Positions 489 through 18,104 of a stretch of DNA of 20,888 bases are shown piece by piece. A model generated the notes under the pieces. It was not told where the DNA came from and did not search any database. It saw nothing but the letters and a program-made list of their open reading frames with translations. The position numbers and the translations under genes are program-made. Location: positions 1 to 20,888 of the forward strand of contig CAXHJY010000896.1 of the NCBI GenBank assembly GCA_964016885.1, written 5' to 3'. The stretch's first letter is position 1. Each line of letters begins with the position of its first letter. The DNA is from Eledone cirrhosa (taxonomy: Eukaryota).

Positions 489-683
489 ATAGGAACGAGT
501 AGGACACCGACGGCTGAGCTCAAGCCGTTTCGACGGCTAATTCTGGACTAACTAATTAGCCGTCGAAACGGCTTGAGCTCAGCCGTCGGGGTCCTACTCG
601 TTCCTATTACCCACTCTACTATCCTAAGTATTGAGTACTTTGGTGCGTTATGGTCCACCTGGTTCCTTACCACATTTCCTCCG

Positions 684-5578: not shown

Positions 5579-5681
5579 AGCCGTCGGGGTCCTACTCGTT
5601 CCTATTACCCACTCTACTACCCTAAGTATTGAGTACTTTGGTGCGTTATGGTCCACCTGGTTCCTTACCACATTTCCTTCG

Positions 5682-5682
<1 letters not shown>
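5579..5682 (+). mobile_element. Foldback family A, truncated copy (end of right arm plus tail)
   Basis: Near-identical to 581-684 and embedded in (TA)n. Confidence 0.85.
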
Positions 5683-5731
<49 letters not shown>

Positions 5732-5790
5732 CGTTTCTGAATTTGTTTAGCAAGATTCTTTATCTGAAATCGTGTGTTGAAACCGATATT

Positions 5791-6025
5791 GTTATACTTT
5801 GGGAGGGTCATGTTGCCAATAAAGGAATCCCCAGTCACTGAAGAGGTCACAGAGTGTGTGACGAAAGAACTATGACTATATATAAACAACTATCTGGTTG
5901 TGGAACCAACCAACCAACCAGAAATTTATAAATTTATAAATTTATTATAAATTTATAATAAATTGAAGTGAAAGCAACTGGTGCATGTGTTTCTTATTGG
6001 CAACATGACCCTCCCAAAGTATAAC
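5791..6025. mobile_element. Short element bounded by a perfect 32-bp inverted repeat and carrying a hammerhead motif
   Basis: GTTATACTTTGGGAGGGTCATGTTGCCAATAA at 5791-5822 and its exact reverse complement at 5994-6025. Internal perfect 26-bp palindrome at 5939-5964. Confidence 0.8.
5833..5877 (+). ncRNA. Minimal type-I hammerhead ribozyme
   Basis: AGUCA (stem I)-CUGAAGA (5838-5844)-G-GUCACA gagug UGUGAC (6-bp stem II)-GAAA (5863-5866)-GAAC-UA-UGACU (stem I'). All conserved core nucleotides are present and predicted cleavage is after A5872. One extra nt after A9 and a vestigial stem III. Confidence 0.75.
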
Positions 6026-6073: not shown

Positions 6074-6256
6074 CAACACAATGAAGCTCTTGCTCGGAGT
6101 GGATTTATCGATAAGGTAGCATATACAGAGTACGAAAATAGACCTAGAAGAAATAGATCCCGTCGCATTTGTTGGTATAACCCACCATATAATATGGAGG
6201 TGGCCACACCATTAGCTAAGATCTTTATTTCCCTTATTACGAAGCATTTTCCCCCT
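6074..6256 (+). pseudogene. Penelope-like retroelement ORF fragment (region between RT and GIY-YIG endonuclease)
   Basis: Manual translation: QHNEALARSGFIDKVAYTEYENRPRRNRSRRICWYNPPYNMEVATPLAKIFISLITKHFPP. This matches the recalled PLE motif 'Y.EAL..SGY...R.IIWFNPP(Y/F)...V.T.IG..F..LI.KHFP'. It has no start codon and is absent from the ORF track. Confidence 0.75.
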
Positions 6257-6982
6257 ACACACACACATATATATAAATATAAATATATATAGGGGGGGGT
6301 GAATGCGTACATAGATATTTTTTGAAATATGTATATATATGTAGATATGTATGTGTGCAAGCGTGTATATATGTGTAAATGTACTGTACTATGAACGTAG
6401 ATATATGCATGCCTGTGTATATATATATATATGTGTGTGTGTGTATCTATTCACGTACATTTTTATATATGTATGCACGTAGACGTACGCCGGTATATAT
6501 TTCTGACTGTAAGCATAAGTAGTAGGCACTTATACGTAGGTAGGTATGTAGGTAGGTGTATATACTTGCTTCTAACCTGTCCTTTATCTGATGTGTATGT
6601 TTAGGTAATGTATCTGTTAATATAGAAGGGTGTTTGAGAGAAGTCTTTATCTCCACATGTTCGGCGATGGTGGGGGTGTTAGTGGGGTGGTGGGGGTGTT
6701 AGTGGGAGGGGGCGTGGTGGGTAGTGATGGAACCTTCTAAAGAATTCCTCAACAGATACAAATACTTCTGTTAATGAGACTATAACTTCGGTGGTAGAGA
6801 ACACGACTGATGAAAGAGTTCAGTGTGGGTAGGTGTGATAGCTTTATATATATTGTCATATATATACATATATATATATATAGAGAGAGAGAGAGAGGGG
6901 GGGGGGTTGTCCCCACAAAATATATACACACTTTGATTACATGTACAGCCAATATTTATTAGAATGTTAGAATGGTGTTGAA

Positions 6983-7167: not shown

Positions 7168-7343
7168 TATCCCGGGTTCAATCGGGGATAACTACAGTAA
7201 GTAAGGTACTCAATACATAGCAGAGTATAAATATTTAATATATAAATGGCCTCTACAGAACTAAAACTATTTCATTCGGGAGAAATCACTAGGGCTTCCT
7301 GATGATTTCTCCCGAATGAAGCAGTTCTAGTCCTGTAGAGGCC

Positions 7344-7353
<10 letters not shown>
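7165..7353. mobile_element. Foldback element with head-to-head degenerate hammerhead cores
   Basis: Imperfect ~55-bp arms at 7238-7292 and 7299-7353. The right arm begins CTGATGA-TTTCTCCCGAAT-GAAG and the left arm is its mirror (CTAGTGA...GAAA on minus). The one-sided tail shares GTACTCAATAC with family A. Flanked by (TA)n. Confidence 0.7.
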
Positions 7354-10869: not shown

Positions 10870-10928
10870 ACTAAAAATTAAGGATTTAAAGTTAAAATGA
10901 TTTTAACTTTAAATCCTTAATTTTTAGT
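10870..10928. repeat. Perfect palindrome with 29-bp arms and 1-nt centre
   Basis: ACTAAAAATTAAGGATTTAAAGTTAAAAT-G-ATTTTAACTTTAAATCCTTAATTTTTAGT. Confidence 0.95.
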
Positions 10929-11054
10929 GTGGTAAGGAACCAGGTGGACCATAACGCACCAGAGTACTGGATACTTGGGGTAGTAGAGTGGGTAATAGGA
11001 AAAGAGTAGCTGTTGAAACGGCCGGAGCTCAGCCGTCGGGGTCCTCACTCTTTT

Positions 11055-11057
<3 letters not shown>
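10928..11057 (-). mobile_element. Foldback family A, inverted copy missing most of one arm
   Basis: Reverse complement of the family A tail, then the distal arm GAAACGGCCGGAGCTCAGCCGTCGGGGTCCT, ending in (TA)n. Confidence 0.8.
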
Positions 11058-13107: not shown

Positions 13108-13417
13108 TGTATAAATATTTCGTATCTCCAAAGAAATACGGTTTTAGGAAGCCGTAGCTATGCAAACTACCGGGGGGGCTAACTCCCTCTGGTGATGTCC
13201 AGCAAAAGCAAGGGAGACAACCGTCTATGTATTTCAGGCTTAACTGGTCATCATCAGGACGGTCCCCCCCCCCCCACCGCTTGCGACTGTGAAATCCATA
13301 GGCGGTTGTTCCCCCTTGCTTCTGCTGGACATCACCAGAGGGCGTTAGCACCCCGGTGTTTGCATAGCTACGGCTTCCTAAAACCGTATTTCTTTGGAGA
13401 TACGAAATATTTATACA
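13108..13417. mobile_element. Foldback element with ~128-bp inverted arms, built from two head-to-head hammerhead units
   Basis: Arms at 13108-13236 and 13290-13417, with the outer ~55 bp essentially perfect. The spacer holds the hammerhead cores and a poly-C run. One-sided tail 13066-13107, flanked by microsatellites. Confidence 0.88.
13219..13264 (-). ncRNA. Minimal type-I hammerhead ribozyme motif with decayed stem II
   Basis: Minus strand reads GACCGUC (stem I)-CUGAUGA (13257-13251)-UGACCAGUUAAGCCU-GAAA (13235-13232)-UACA-UA-GACGGUU (stem I'). Stem I is 7 bp and the core is intact, but stem II pairs poorly. Confidence 0.65.
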
Positions 13418-13519
13418 CACACACACATATATATATAGATATATATATGTATATATATATATATAGTAATGAGATGACTGACTGTATTTGGGAAACAATG
13501 CAGAGCTACATAGTAAAGC

Positions 13520-13521
<2 letters not shown>

Positions 13522-13559
<38 letters not shown>

Positions 13560-13676
13560 CAACAGTAGTGGTAGTGGTGGTAGTATGTTGGTATATAATA
13601 AAGTCTTTTGATAATACTCCTGTGTTCAACTTCCTTGTTTCGGTAGTAGTAGTGGTAGTGGTGGTATGTTGTGTTG

Positions 13677-13710
<34 letters not shown>

Positions 13711-16700
13711 CAGCAGTAGTGTAGTAGTGTAGTATGTTATGTTGGGTTGGTAGTAGTAGTAGTAGCAACAGTAGTGGTGGTAGTATGCTGGTATATAATA
13801 CAGTCTGTTGATAACACAGCACTGTTCAACTTCCTTGTTTTGGTAGTGGTAGTGGTAGTGGTGGTATGTTGTGTTGGTAGTAGTAGTAGTAGTAGCAACA
13901 GTAGTAGTAGCAACAGTAGTAGTAGCAACAGTAGTAGTAGCAACAGTAGTAGTAGTAGTAGTAGCAACAGTAGTGGTAGTAGTAGCAACAGTGGTGGTAG
14001 TAGTATGCTGGTATATAAGACAGTCTGTTGATAACACTGCACTGTTCAACTTCCTTGTTTTGGTAGTGGTAGTGGTAGTGGTGGTATGTTGTGTTGGTAG
14101 TAGTAGTAGTAGTAGCAACAGTAGTAGTAGTAGTAGCAACAGTAGTGGTGGTAGTATGCTGGTATATAAGACAGTCTGTTGATAACACTGCACTGTTCAA
14201 CTTCCTTGTTTTGGTAGTGGTAGTGGTAGTGGTGGTATGTTGTGTTGGTAGTAGTAGTAGTAGTAGCAACAGTAGTAGTAGTAGTAGCAACAGTGGTGGT
14301 GGTAGTAGCAACAGTAGTGGTAGTAGTATGCTGGTATATAAGACAGTCTGTTGATAACACTGCACTGTTCAACTTCCTTGTTTTGGTAGTGGTAGTGGTA
14401 GTGGTGGTATGTTGTGTTGGTAGTAGTAGTAGTAGTAGCAACAGTAGTAGTAGTAGTAGCAACAGTGGTGGTGGTAGTAGCAACAGTAGTGGTAGTAGTA
14501 TGCTGGTATATAAGACAGTCTGTTGATAACACTGCACTGTTCAACTTCCTTGTTTTGGTAGTGGTAGTGGTAGTGGTGGTATGTTGTGTTGGTAGTAGTA
14601 GTAGTAGTAGCAACAGTAGTAGTAGTAGTAGCAACAGTGGTGGTGGTAGTAGCAACAGTAGTGGTAGTAGTATGCTGGTATATAAGACAGTCTGTTGATA
14701 ACACTGCACTGTTCAACTTCCTTGTTTTGGTAGTGGTAGTGGTAGTGGTGGTATGTTGTGTTGGTAGTAGTAGTAGTAGTAGCAACAGTAGTAGTAGTAG
14801 TAGCAACAGTGGTGGTGGTAGTAGCAACAGTAGTGGTAGTAGTATGCTGGTATATAAGACAGTCTGTTGATAACACTGCACTGTTCAACTTCCTTGTTTT
14901 GGTAGTGGTAGTGGTAGTGGTGGTATGTTGTGTTGGTAGTAGTAGTAGTAGTAGCAACAGTAGTAGTAGTAGTAGCAACAGTGGTGGTGGTAGTAGCAAC
15001 AGTAGTGGTAGTAGTATGCTGGTATATAAGACAGTCTGTTGATAACACTGCACTGTTCAACTTCCTTGTTTTGGTAGTGGTAGTGGTAGTGGTGGTATGT
15101 TGTGTTGGTAGTAGTAGTAGTAGTAGCAACAGTAGTAGTAGTAGTAGCAACAGTGGTGGTGGTAGTAGCAACAGTAGTGGTAGTAGTATGCTGGTATATA
15201 AGACAGTCTGTTGATAACACTGCACTGTTCAACTTCCTTGTTTTGGTAGTGGTAGTGGTAGTGGTGGTATGTTGTGTTGGTAGTAGTAGTAGTAGTAGCA
15301 ACAGTAGTAGTAGTGGTAGTAGTAGCAACAGTAGTAGTAGTAGTAGCAACAGTAGTGGTAGTAGTAGCAACAGTAGTGGTAGTAGTATGCTGGTATATAA
15401 GACAGTCTGTTGATAACACTGCACTGTTCAACTTCCTTGTTTTGGTAGTGGTAGTGGTAGTGGTGGTATGTTGTGTTGGTAGTAGTAGTAGTAGTAGCAA
15501 CAGTAGTAGTAGTGGTAGTAGTAGCAACAGTAGTAGTAGTAGTAGCAACAGTAGTGGTAGTAGTAGCAACAGTAGTGGTGGTAGTATGCTGGTATATAAG
15601 ACAGTCTGTTGATAACACTGCACTGTTCAACTTCCTTGTTTTGGTAGTGGTAGTGGTAGTGGTGTGTTGTGTTGGTAGTAGTAGTAGTAGTAGCAACAGT
15701 AGTAGTAGTGGTAGTAGTAGCAACAGTAGTAGTAGTAGTAGCAACAGTAGTGGTAGTAGTAGCAACAGTAGTGGTAGTAGTATGCTGGTATATAAGACAG
15801 TCTGTTGATAACACTGCACTGTTCAACTTCCTTGTTTTGGTAGTGGTAGTGGTAGTGGTGGTATGTTGTGTTGGTAGTAGTAGTAGTAGTAGCAACAGTA
15901 GTAGTAGTAGTAGCAACAGTGGTGGTGGTAGTAGCAACAGTAGTGGTAGTAGTATGCTGGTATATAAGACAGTCTGTTGATAACACTGCACTGTTCAACT
16001 TCCTTGTTTTGGTAGTGGTAGTGGTAGTGGTGGTATGTTGTGTTGGTAGTAGTAGTAGTAGTAGCAACAGTAGTAGTAGTGGTAGTAGTAGCAACAGTAG
16101 TAGTAGTAGTAGCAACAGTAGTGGTAGTAGTAGCAACAGTAGTGGTAGTAGTATGCTGGTATATAAGACAGTCTGTTGATAACACTGCACTGTTCAACTT
16201 CCTTGTTTTGGTAGTGGTAGTGGTAGTGGTGGTATGTTGTGTTGGTAGTAGTAGTAGTAGTAGCAACAGTAGTAGTAGTGGTAGTAGTAGCAACAGTAGT
16301 AGTAGTAGTAGCAACAGTAGTGGTAGTAGTAGCAACAGTAGTGGTAGTAGTATGCTGGTATATAAGACAGTCTGTTGATAACACTGCACTGTTCAACTTC
16401 CTTGTTTTGGTAGTGGTAGTGGTAGTGGTGGTATGTTGTGTTGGTAGTAGTAGTAGTAGTAGCAACAGTAGTAGTAGTGGTAGTAGTAGCAACAGTAGTA
16501 GTAGTAGTAGCAACAGTAGTGGTAGTAGTAGCAACAGTAGTGGTGGTAGTATGCTGGTATATAAGACAGTCTGTTGATAACACTGCACTGTTCAACTTCC
16601 TTGTTTTGGTAGTGGTAGTGGTAGTGGTGGTATGTTGTGTTGGTAGTAGTAGTAGTAGTAGCAACAGTAGTAGTAGTGGTAGTAGTAGCAACAGTAGTAG

Positions 16701-17991
16701 TAGTAGTAGCAACAGTAGTGGTAGTAGTAGCAACAGTAGTGGTAGTAGTATGCTGGTATATAAGACAGTCTGTTGATAACACTGCACTGTTCAACTTCCT
16801 TGTTTTGGTAGTGGTAGTGGTAGTGGTGGTATGTTGTGTTGGTAGTAGTAGTAGTAGTAGCAACAGTAGTAGTAGTAGTAGCAACAGTGGTGGTGGTAGT
16901 AGCAACAGTAGTGGTAGTAGTATGCTGGTATATAAGACAGTCTGTTGATAACACTGCACTGTTCAACTTCCTTGTTTTGGTAGTGGTAGTGGTAGTGGTG
17001 GTATGTTGTGTTGGTAGTAGTAGTAGTAGTAGCAACAGTAGTAGTAGTGGTAGTAGTAGCAACAGTAGTAGTAGTAGTAGCAACAGTAGTGGTAGTAGTA
17101 GCAACAGTAGTGGTAGTAGTATGCTGGTATATAAGACAGTCTGTTGATAACACTGCACTGTTCAACTTCCTTGTTTTGGTAGTGGTAGTGGTAGTGGTGG
17201 TATGTTGTGTTGGTAGTAGTAGTAGTAGTAGCAACAGTAGTAGTAGTGGTAGTAGTAGCAACAGTAGTAGTAGTAGTAGCAACAGTAGTGGTAGTAGTAG
17301 CAACAGTAGTGGTGGTAGTATGCTGGTATATAAGACAGTCTGTTGATAACACTGCACTGTTCAACTTCCTTGTTTTGGTAGTGGTAGTGGTAGTGGTGGT
17401 ATGTTGTGTTGGTAGTAGTAGTAGTAGTAGCAACAGTAGTAGTAGTGGTAGTAGTAGCAACAGTAGTAGTAGTAGTAGTAGCAACAGTAGTGGTAGTAGT
17501 AGCAACAGTGGTGGTAGTAGTATGCTGGTATATAAGACAGTCTGTTGATAACACTGCACTGTTCAACTTCCTTGTTTTGGTAGTGGTAGTGGTAGTGGTG
17601 GTATGTTGTGTTGGTAGTAAGTAGTAGTAGTAGCAACAGTAGTAGTAGTGGTAGTAGTAGCAACAGTAGTAGTAGTAGTAGTAGTAGCAACAGTAGTGGT
17701 AGTAGTAGCAACAGTAGTGGTAGTAGTATGCTGGTATATAAGACAGTCTGTTGATAACACTGCACTGTTCAACTTCCTTGTTTTGGTAGTGGTAGTGGTA
17801 GTGGTGGTATGTTGTGTTGGTAGTAGTAGTAGTAGTAGCAACAGTAGTAGTAGTGGTAGTAGTAGCAACAGTAGTAGTAGTAGTAGTAGTAGCAACAGTA
17901 GTGGTAGTAGTAGCAACAGTAGTGGTAGTAGTATGCTGGTATATAAGACAGTCTGTTGATAACACTGCACTGTTCAACTTCCTTGTTTTGG
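13522..17991. repeat. Composite satellite: 24 copies of a ~55-bp core separated by variable (TAG/TGG)n-GCAACA tracts
   Basis: Core TATGCTGGTATATAAGACAGTCTGTTGATAACACTGCACTGTTCAACTTCCTTGTTTTGG. Unit lengths are 151-220 bp, mostly 172 and 199, and the two left-most cores are diverged. Confidence 0.97.
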
Positions 17992-18104
17992 TCTAAAGTG
18001 ACTTTCTTTGGCGGATTTCGGTTTTAGTTTCTCTTACAGCTGATCATATTGTTACTTTCTCTTTTATTGATTACCTTTCTACAAAATATATCGATCTATC
18101 GATC

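What the first reader, a model, noticed from the sequence alone, without database searches (positions are those of the whole stretch)
5833..5877. Best-preserved hammerhead ribozyme, enclosed by a perfect 32-bp inverted repeat
It has a complete catalytic core, a 5-bp stem I, a 6-bp stem II, a CUA cleavage triplet, a single extra G after A9, and a 1-2-bp stem III. It lies just inside a flawless 32-bp inverted repeat (so young or homogenised) and about 200 bp from a PLE ORF fragment. This is the best candidate for a still-active self-cleaving RNA in the window.
Basis: partly seen in the sequence, partly recalled or inferred. Interest (0 to 1): 0.75.

Follow-up and report, generated by a model that had tools for sequence, protein, structure and literature searches.

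The report
Ordinary hammerhead in Neptune retrotransposon end
This is a real hammerhead-shaped RNA motif, one of thousands of identical copies at the end of a Penelope-like jumping gene; the inverted repeat around it is the usual two-armed insertion shape of such elements, and the motif is predicted to cut itself only weakly.

Summary
The anatomy is as described and is not chance (0 of 1,000 shuffles). The copy is not special: its 45 bases occur 3,842 times exactly in this genome. It lies in the terminal repeat (pLTR) of a young Neptune-type Penelope-like element (PLE). The extra nucleotide after A9, long stem II and 2-bp stem III are published PLE-hammerhead features.

The inverted repeat is the two ends of one 296-bp insertion (5730-6025) into (AT)n, and it is perfect in 24 of 32 comparable loci. 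The nearby ORF fragment matches a Hydra-type PLE, not this family.

Sister families show compensatory stem II changes, so the fold is kept. Activity of this copy is doubtful: stem III needs a partner, and 0 of 100 copies start at the cut site.

One side result: in 34 of 34 two-armed insertions the ~60-nt tail sits at exactly one end. This points to paired use of two reverse-transcription start sites. The scan noted similar two-site ends earlier on other DNA of this genome. No RNA data were available.

The parts
5683..5729 (.). (TA)n target tract, left side
5730..5785 (-). 'Tail' of the inverted arm: 56 nt of the element's ORF start (+27 to +82 from the ATG), present on this arm only
   Evidence: continues in frame into the ORF in L032
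5786..5822 (-). Rest of the inverted arm (pLTR 3' end and ORF start); 5791-5822 is the perfect 32-bp arm
5821..6025 (+). Sense arm: 5'-truncated pLTR of a Neptune-type PLE, ending at the tail-less site; 2-nt overlap with the inverted arm at 5821-5822 (5 nt against a rare variant)
5833..5877 (+). Type I hammerhead: stem I 5 bp, core 5838-5844, extra G5845, stem II 6 bp, GAAA 5863-5866, 2-bp stem III with AA loop
5872..5873 (+). Predicted cleavage site, 3' of A5872 (triplet CUA); untested
   Evidence: inferred from hammerhead numbering
5994..6025 (+). Right arm of the 32-bp inverted repeat; holds the ORF start codon at 6005 and the first 7 codons
6026..6042 (.). (TA)n target tract, right side

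Best explanation
The 45 bases are a type I hammerhead motif in the terminal repeat of a high-copy, Neptune-type Penelope-like retrotransposon, and the 32-bp inverted repeat marks the two ends of one short two-armed insertion (5730-6025) into an (AT)n tract, likely made when the element's enzyme nicked both target strands and primed copying at two start sites 60 nt apart; the ribozyme is predicted to cut after A5872 only weakly, as a dimer or with the element's protein. Shown: anatomy, copy number, parent element, insertion layout, tail at one end only, stem II covariation. Inferred: two-site priming (by analogy to the anole Poseidon element), uncut RNA as the template, and weak dimer- or protein-dependent cleavage in tandem full-length copies rather than at this lone arm.
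For: 3,842 exact copies of the 45-mer, control 0. L032 holds pLTR-ORF-pLTR with the hammerhead 245 nt after the stop and 172-180 nt before the ATG. L081 has a 1,167-aa open frame with DKSG, DVVSLYP, YVDD, CX4CxxC, VVY..YIG and C..C..H..H motifs; homologues carry weak RVT_1 and GIY-YIG hits. Tail at exactly one end in 19 of 19 evaluable pairs and 15 of 15 short-arm insertions (p 5e-11 if ends were independent). 0 of 100 copies begin at the cut site. 8,892 sister-family cores against 39 controls, with stem II paired in 96.5% of cells and two pairs changed on both sides. Published parallels: PMC4209133, PMC11167929, PMC3846280, PMC8557442.
Against: No cleavage assay and no transcript evidence in hand. 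Rfam hammerhead models do not match. No Pfam family matched the L081 protein itself. Neptune assignment rests on motifs, not a tree. The two stem II compensatory changes separate two family groups and may be only two events. The core and stem III were forced by the search pattern. One BLAST-picked locus (L002) has an inverted arm starting at 5871-5873, at the predicted cut. The two-site priming data come from a Poseidon element, where top and bottom strands did not differ in start site.
Confidence: 0.85

Rival explanations
1. This copy is an efficient self-cleaving RNA in its own right, kept intact at this locus.
For: Complete core; stems I and II form in the isolated 45-mer (pair probabilities 0.72-1.0); sequence identical to a major family variant (22 of 97).
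Against: A 2-bp stem III with a 2-nt loop needs a partner, and no second intact copy lies in the window. AA-loop dimer -19.2 against -21.4 kcal/mol for two monomers. Stem I probability falls to about 0.35 in 5823-5993 and 0.13 in 5730-6025. An extra G at this position was strongly detrimental in a viroid hammerhead (review PMC3705267, passages). PLE hammerheads tested singly did not cleave (PMC4209133) or needed protein (PMC11167929).
Confidence: 0.07
2. The fold is conserved but this subfamily (G10, AA loop, CUA) is catalytically dead even as a dimer; it survives as an RNA structure or passenger while transposition uses uncut RNA.
For: 0 of 100 copies start at the cut. Hammerhead mutants did not affect insertion by the anole element in vitro (PMC11167929). 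Unfavourable dimer energy for the AA loop.
Against: Across sister families the free positions N7, the extra base, loop III and N17 vary, N17 staying H by the pattern, while stem II covaries, as expected under selection on a hammerhead fold. The GA-loop variant (64 of 97) gives a favourable dimer, -23.3 kcal/mol.
Confidence: 0.25
3. The inverted arm arose by fold-back self-priming or template switching rather than by priming on both target strands (concerns the repeat only).
For: Proposed for rotifer Penelopes (PMC3846280, passages); 2-5 nt overlap at the 5821-5822 junction.
Against: Does not by itself explain why the two outer ends always fall at two different fixed sites (34 of 34). The anole enzyme cleaves and extends both strands in vitro (PMC11167929).
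Confidence: 0.2
4. A MITE-like or retrozyme-like unit with terminal inverted repeats that carries a hammerhead.
For: Short unit, perfect terminal inverted repeat, no coding capacity at this locus.
Against: The left boundary is not shared: family copies continue upstream into the 3' UTR and GIY-YIG ORF, arm lengths vary from about 10 nt to kilobases, and the repeat is the ORF start of an autonomous element.
Confidence: 0.02

Closest known systems
PLE hammerheads with small helix III (Cervera and de la Pena 2014, PMC4209133; parts 1-2 of 4 read)
   Same: Type I, in the pLTR, helix I 4-5 bp, large helix II, unpaired base between A9 and G10.1, G10.1-C11.1 pair, tiny helix III, thousands of mostly solo copies.
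   Different: Loop III (AA or GA) is not a Watson-Crick palindrome; the extra base is G in this family and U in sister families; very low sequence variability, as in D. virilis.
Poseidon element PAc of the green anole (Frangieh et al. 2024, PMC11167929; parts 1-2 of 4 read)
   Same: Insertion ends lie inside the ORF start at two sites that define the tail; AT-rich target; genomic copies read across the cut site.
   Different: Here a Neptune-type linker; hammerhead about 170 nt upstream of the ATG instead of overlapping it; tail about 60 nt instead of 30-40; both start sites carry the same hexamer with ATAT matching the target, whereas PAc start sites were reported as not homologous to the target.
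Inverted pLTR plus optional tail of Adineta vaga Penelopes and of Naiad, Neptune and Nematis PLEs (PMC3846280 and PMC8557442, passages)
   Same: Inverted 5'-truncated copy at the 5' end, tail on one end, pLTR includes the first codons, (TA)n target, N-rich ORF insert.
   Different: The papers describe the one-ended tail as 'optional' or 'often'; here it is 34 of 34.

Membership tests
Type I hammerhead ribozyme | Core C3 U4 G5 A6 N7 G8 A9, G12 A13 A14 A15.1, U16.1 H17 | tested here: met
   87 of 97 family copies
Type I hammerhead ribozyme | Stems I and II flanking the core, open at stem I | tested here: met
   fold; stem II covariation, inner stem I pairs 19 of 19 and 17 of 19
Type I hammerhead ribozyme | Stem III stable as a monomer | tested here: not met
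   2 bp round a 2-nt loop; typical of metazoan type I motifs that work as dimers (PMC4209133)
Type I hammerhead ribozyme | Match to an Rfam hammerhead model | tested here: not met
   no match at E<=10
Type I hammerhead ribozyme | Self-cleavage 3' of N17 | not testable with these tools
   needs an assay
PLE-type hammerhead (Cervera and de la Pena 2014) | In a pLTR; extra base between A9 and G10.1; large helix II; G10.1-C11.1 | tested here: met
   extra G in 97 of 97; G-C in 18 of 19
PLE-type hammerhead (Cervera and de la Pena 2014) | Palindromic 15.2-16.2 and loop 3 | tested here: inconclusive
   15.2-16.2 is G-C; the loop would give tandem A.A (this copy) or G.A (64 of 97) mismatches in a dimer
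EN+ Penelope-like element | Single ORF with RT and C-terminal GIY-YIG between pLTRs; inverted arm; tail | tested here: met
   L032, L081; Pfam RVT_1 and GIY-YIG only on homologues and below cut-off
Neptune clade | CX2-5CxxC linker before GIY-YIG, CCHH in the endonuclease, endonuclease C-terminal | tested here: met
   against the description in PMC8557442
Neptune clade | RT phylogeny with Neptune rather than Nematis references | not tested
   no reference sequences in hand
Hydra clade (neighbouring ORF fragment 6113-6259) | RWK, DKT and CxCX5C motifs | tested here: inconclusive
   the motifs are present in the L031 ORF, which the fragment matches at 16 of 35 residues, E 3e-11; the fragment itself is too short to hold them
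MITE or TIR DNA transposon | Fixed terminal inverted repeats shared by copies | tested here: not met
   junctions and arm lengths differ among copies

The most novel reading that the evidence does not exclude
Two-armed insertions of this Neptune-type family never use the same reverse-transcription start site twice: one target strand is always primed at the site about +22 to +26 from the ATG and the other 60 nt further on, both on an ATAT match to the target. This would mean one asymmetric enzyme dimer copies a single, uncut RNA from two fixed positions, with the hammerhead acting at another step. The family (thousands of near-identical copies, a 1,167-aa open frame) is a ready test system.
Probability: 0.5. 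Interest if true: 0.45.

Novelty: new member of a known kind. Interest (0 to 1): 0.2.

Why it matters
As a ribozyme it matters little: it is one of thousands of identical copies of a published motif type. The family is of modest use for the open question of how Penelope-like elements transpose and what their hammerheads do. It offers a young Neptune-type system, a strict one-ended tail rule, no sign of cut RNA among copy ends, and natural variants (G or U extra base; AA or GA loop) for a direct activity comparison.

Tried and rejected
Rfam scans: only microRNA and low-complexity noise, no hammerhead model. Search for 5' ends at the cut site: 0 of 100; the single L002 case in the BLAST-picked set was not taken as proof. 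Sequencing runs: no RNA holder listed, so expression is open; no reads were laid. Link between the hammerhead and the ORF fragment at 6113-6259: rejected. A 5-nt junction microhomology: reduced to 2 nt because the variant giving 5 nt was seen in 0 of 100 sampled copies. Inverted-repeat perfection as a clock: too short. Pfam on the family ORFs: no match. Lunse et al. on dimeric PLE hammerheads was not held and is known here only through review PMC6765202. De la Pena and Flores 2001 was seen only through PMC3705267 and PMC1636495. The one supplementary file of PMC8557442 searched listed octopus Naiads and held neither of two family motifs; its sequence and hammerhead files were not among those searched and may hold related families. 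An earlier-findings search by sequence returned nothing.

Full report
Observation. A hammerhead descriptor finds only this site on either strand of the window and no site in 1,000 dinucleotide shuffles. Rfam gives no hammerhead match on 5760-5930 at E<=10, nor among the 150 of 263 rows shown for the whole window.

Copy number. The window is G000:C923:1-20888 in a 3.0-Gb genome. The closest named protein relative of the element is an Octopus vulgaris protein at 69% identity; the resemblance of neighbouring repeats to octopus SINEs is recalled, not tested. The exact 45-mer occurs 3,842 times (control 0), and a 24-mer just after the cut site 5,189 times. I fetched the first 100 of those 5,189 places, all on contig C1. 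Of these, 97 align without gaps to the motif (3 dropped: truncated or deleted). Among the 97, 22 are identical to the window, 42 differ only by a GA loop III, 87 have an intact core, 77 have core and all stems, and all 97 have the extra G. The window's sense arm differs from its nearest sampled copies by 1 mismatch and one gap in about 205 bases (median 5 mismatches).

Parent element. L032 holds pLTR-ORF-pLTR, with the ORF broken near its N-terminus by an insertion that looks like a SINE. The hammerhead core lies 245 nt after the stop codon and 172-180 nt before the ATG. L081 has a 1,167-aa open frame with RT motifs, a CX4CxxC linker, GIY-YIG and CCHH-type residues. These are the features given for Neptune and Nematis in PMC8557442 (passages). 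Pfam found nothing on this protein; homologues gave RVT_1 and GIY-YIG hits below cut-off. No tree was built, so 'Neptune-type' rests on motifs.

The inverted repeat. The insertion is 5730-6025 between two (TA)n tracts. Its sense arm (5821-6025) is a 5'-truncated pLTR ending 21 nt into the ORF (ATG at 6005). Its inverted arm (5730-5822) is the same end read backwards plus 56 more bases of ORF. The one mismatch in the longer 37-bp match is at the target junction. This layout, an inverted truncated copy with a tail on one end and the first codons inside the pLTR, is described in PMC8557442 (passages) and PMC3846280 (passages). The repeat is perfect in 24 of 32 sampled loci with one arm on each strand, and 32 of 32 matches only bounds divergence below 8.9%. 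It is therefore an insertion product and a poor clock; youth is better shown by the thousands of identical copies.

Tail rule. Of 100 sampled ends, 46 carry the tail, 53 do not and 1 could not be scored. Twenty-one loci had anchors on both strands; one with three anchors was left out and one could not be scored by the script. The remaining 19 of 19 have the tail at exactly one end. Of 55 single-anchor loci, 15 had a detectable short inverted arm, and 15 of 15 follow the same rule. If the ends were independent this has p 5e-11. Tail-less arms shorter than about 24 nt would be missed. Both end sites sit on the same hexamer of the ORF, at +22 and +82, whose ATAT matches the target. For the anole Poseidon element, the tail was shown to be the stretch between two internal reverse-transcription start sites, with both target strands cut and extended (PMC11167929, parts 1-2 read). 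I infer the same here, with paired use of the two sites. Searches found the one-ended tail described only qualitatively. I made this count before consulting earlier notes; two notes on other repeats of this genome report similar two-armed, two-site ends (not checked).

The ORF fragment next door. 6113-6259 does not align with the family ORF (E 0.42). It aligns with an ORF in L031 (16 of 35 residues, E 3e-11) that has the RWK, DKT and CxCX5C motifs of the Hydra clade (PMC8557442 section 11). Both clades target (TA)n, which explains the neighbourhood.

Is the fold under selection? A pattern that excludes this family's N7 finds 8,892 cores against 39 controls. In 19 chosen variants (window, L044 and 17 from the 30 loci), stem II is paired in 96.5% of cells, with two pairs changed on both sides. 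The innermost stem I pairs hold in 19 and 17 of 19, and the outer ones break in the sister family. The core, stem III and C11.1 were forced by the pattern, and the compensatory changes may be just two events. The extra base is G here and U in sister families. The extra base, long helix II and small helix III are listed as general PLE-hammerhead features in PMC4209133 (parts 1-2 read).

Would it cut? The isolated 45-mer forms stems I and II (-10.9 kcal/mol), but stem III cannot close alone. The double-hammerhead dimer scores -19.2 against -21.4 for two monomers with the AA loop, and -23.3 with the GA loop (nearest-neighbour energies only). In longer RNA from this locus, stem I falls to probability 0.35 (5823-5993) or 0.13 (5730-6025) through a rival pairing; folding during transcription could differ. 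An extra G was strongly detrimental in a viroid hammerhead (review PMC3705267, passages). PLE hammerheads were inactive singly and weak as dimers (PMC4209133), or needed the element's protein and were dispensable for insertion in vitro (PMC11167929). In the sample, 0 of 100 copies begin at the cut site; six begin at scattered points 9-40 nt upstream of the anchor. So the copied template was mostly uncut or religated. Against this, L002, from the BLAST-picked set, has an inverted arm that starts at 5871-5873.

Verdict. A genuine hammerhead motif of a known kind in an undescribed or unannotated family (searches found no paper on octopus PLE hammerheads of this clade; PMC13282606, passages, lists recently active octopus Penelope families without mention of hammerheads). 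This copy is a typical dead-on-arrival fragment. Interest 0.2; the tail rule is the only result that reaches beyond the known description.

Noticed in passing
window 6113-6259 (+): Fragment of a Hydra-type PLE ORF (RT-endonuclease linker region), unrelated to the hammerhead's family; in L031 a Hydra-type ORF likewise follows a Neptune-type end across a (TA)n tract.
   Followed up: yes
window 7271-7350 (+): Decayed hammerhead of another family: core at 7299, GAAG in place of GAAA, inside a fold-back junction.
   Followed up: partly
window 13141-13410; core at 13257 (-): Two-armed insertion of a third family with an intact core and stem I, a 2-bp stem III and an AUA triplet, but a poorly paired stem II.
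   Followed up: partly
window 489-682, 5579-5682, 10928-11056: A (TA)n-inserted family showing only the 3' half of a hammerhead (GAAA, 4-5 bp stem III with a palindromic loop, GUC). 581-731 and 5579-5729 are 98.7% identical; the 5579 copy starts 6 nt before the predicted cut.
   Followed up: no
G000:C1:63066974, 63071397, 63075820 (+): Three exact hammerhead copies spaced 4,423 bases on one strand: probably tandem full-length elements, the natural setting for dimer cleavage.
   Followed up: no
L081:1228-4728, L032:1969-4944: The family ORF has a long Asn/Thr/His-rich stretch before the RT, like the N-rich inserts reported for rotifer Penelopes (PMC3846280, passages).
   Followed up: no
window 13500-18000: Homogeneous 172/199-bp tandem array built on (GTA)n units.
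   Followed up: no
protein P0070: An Octopus vulgaris protein annotated as dynein regulatory complex subunit 6-like matches 20% of the RT-endonuclease region at 79% identity: an element piece in a gene model, or exonisation.
   Followed up: no
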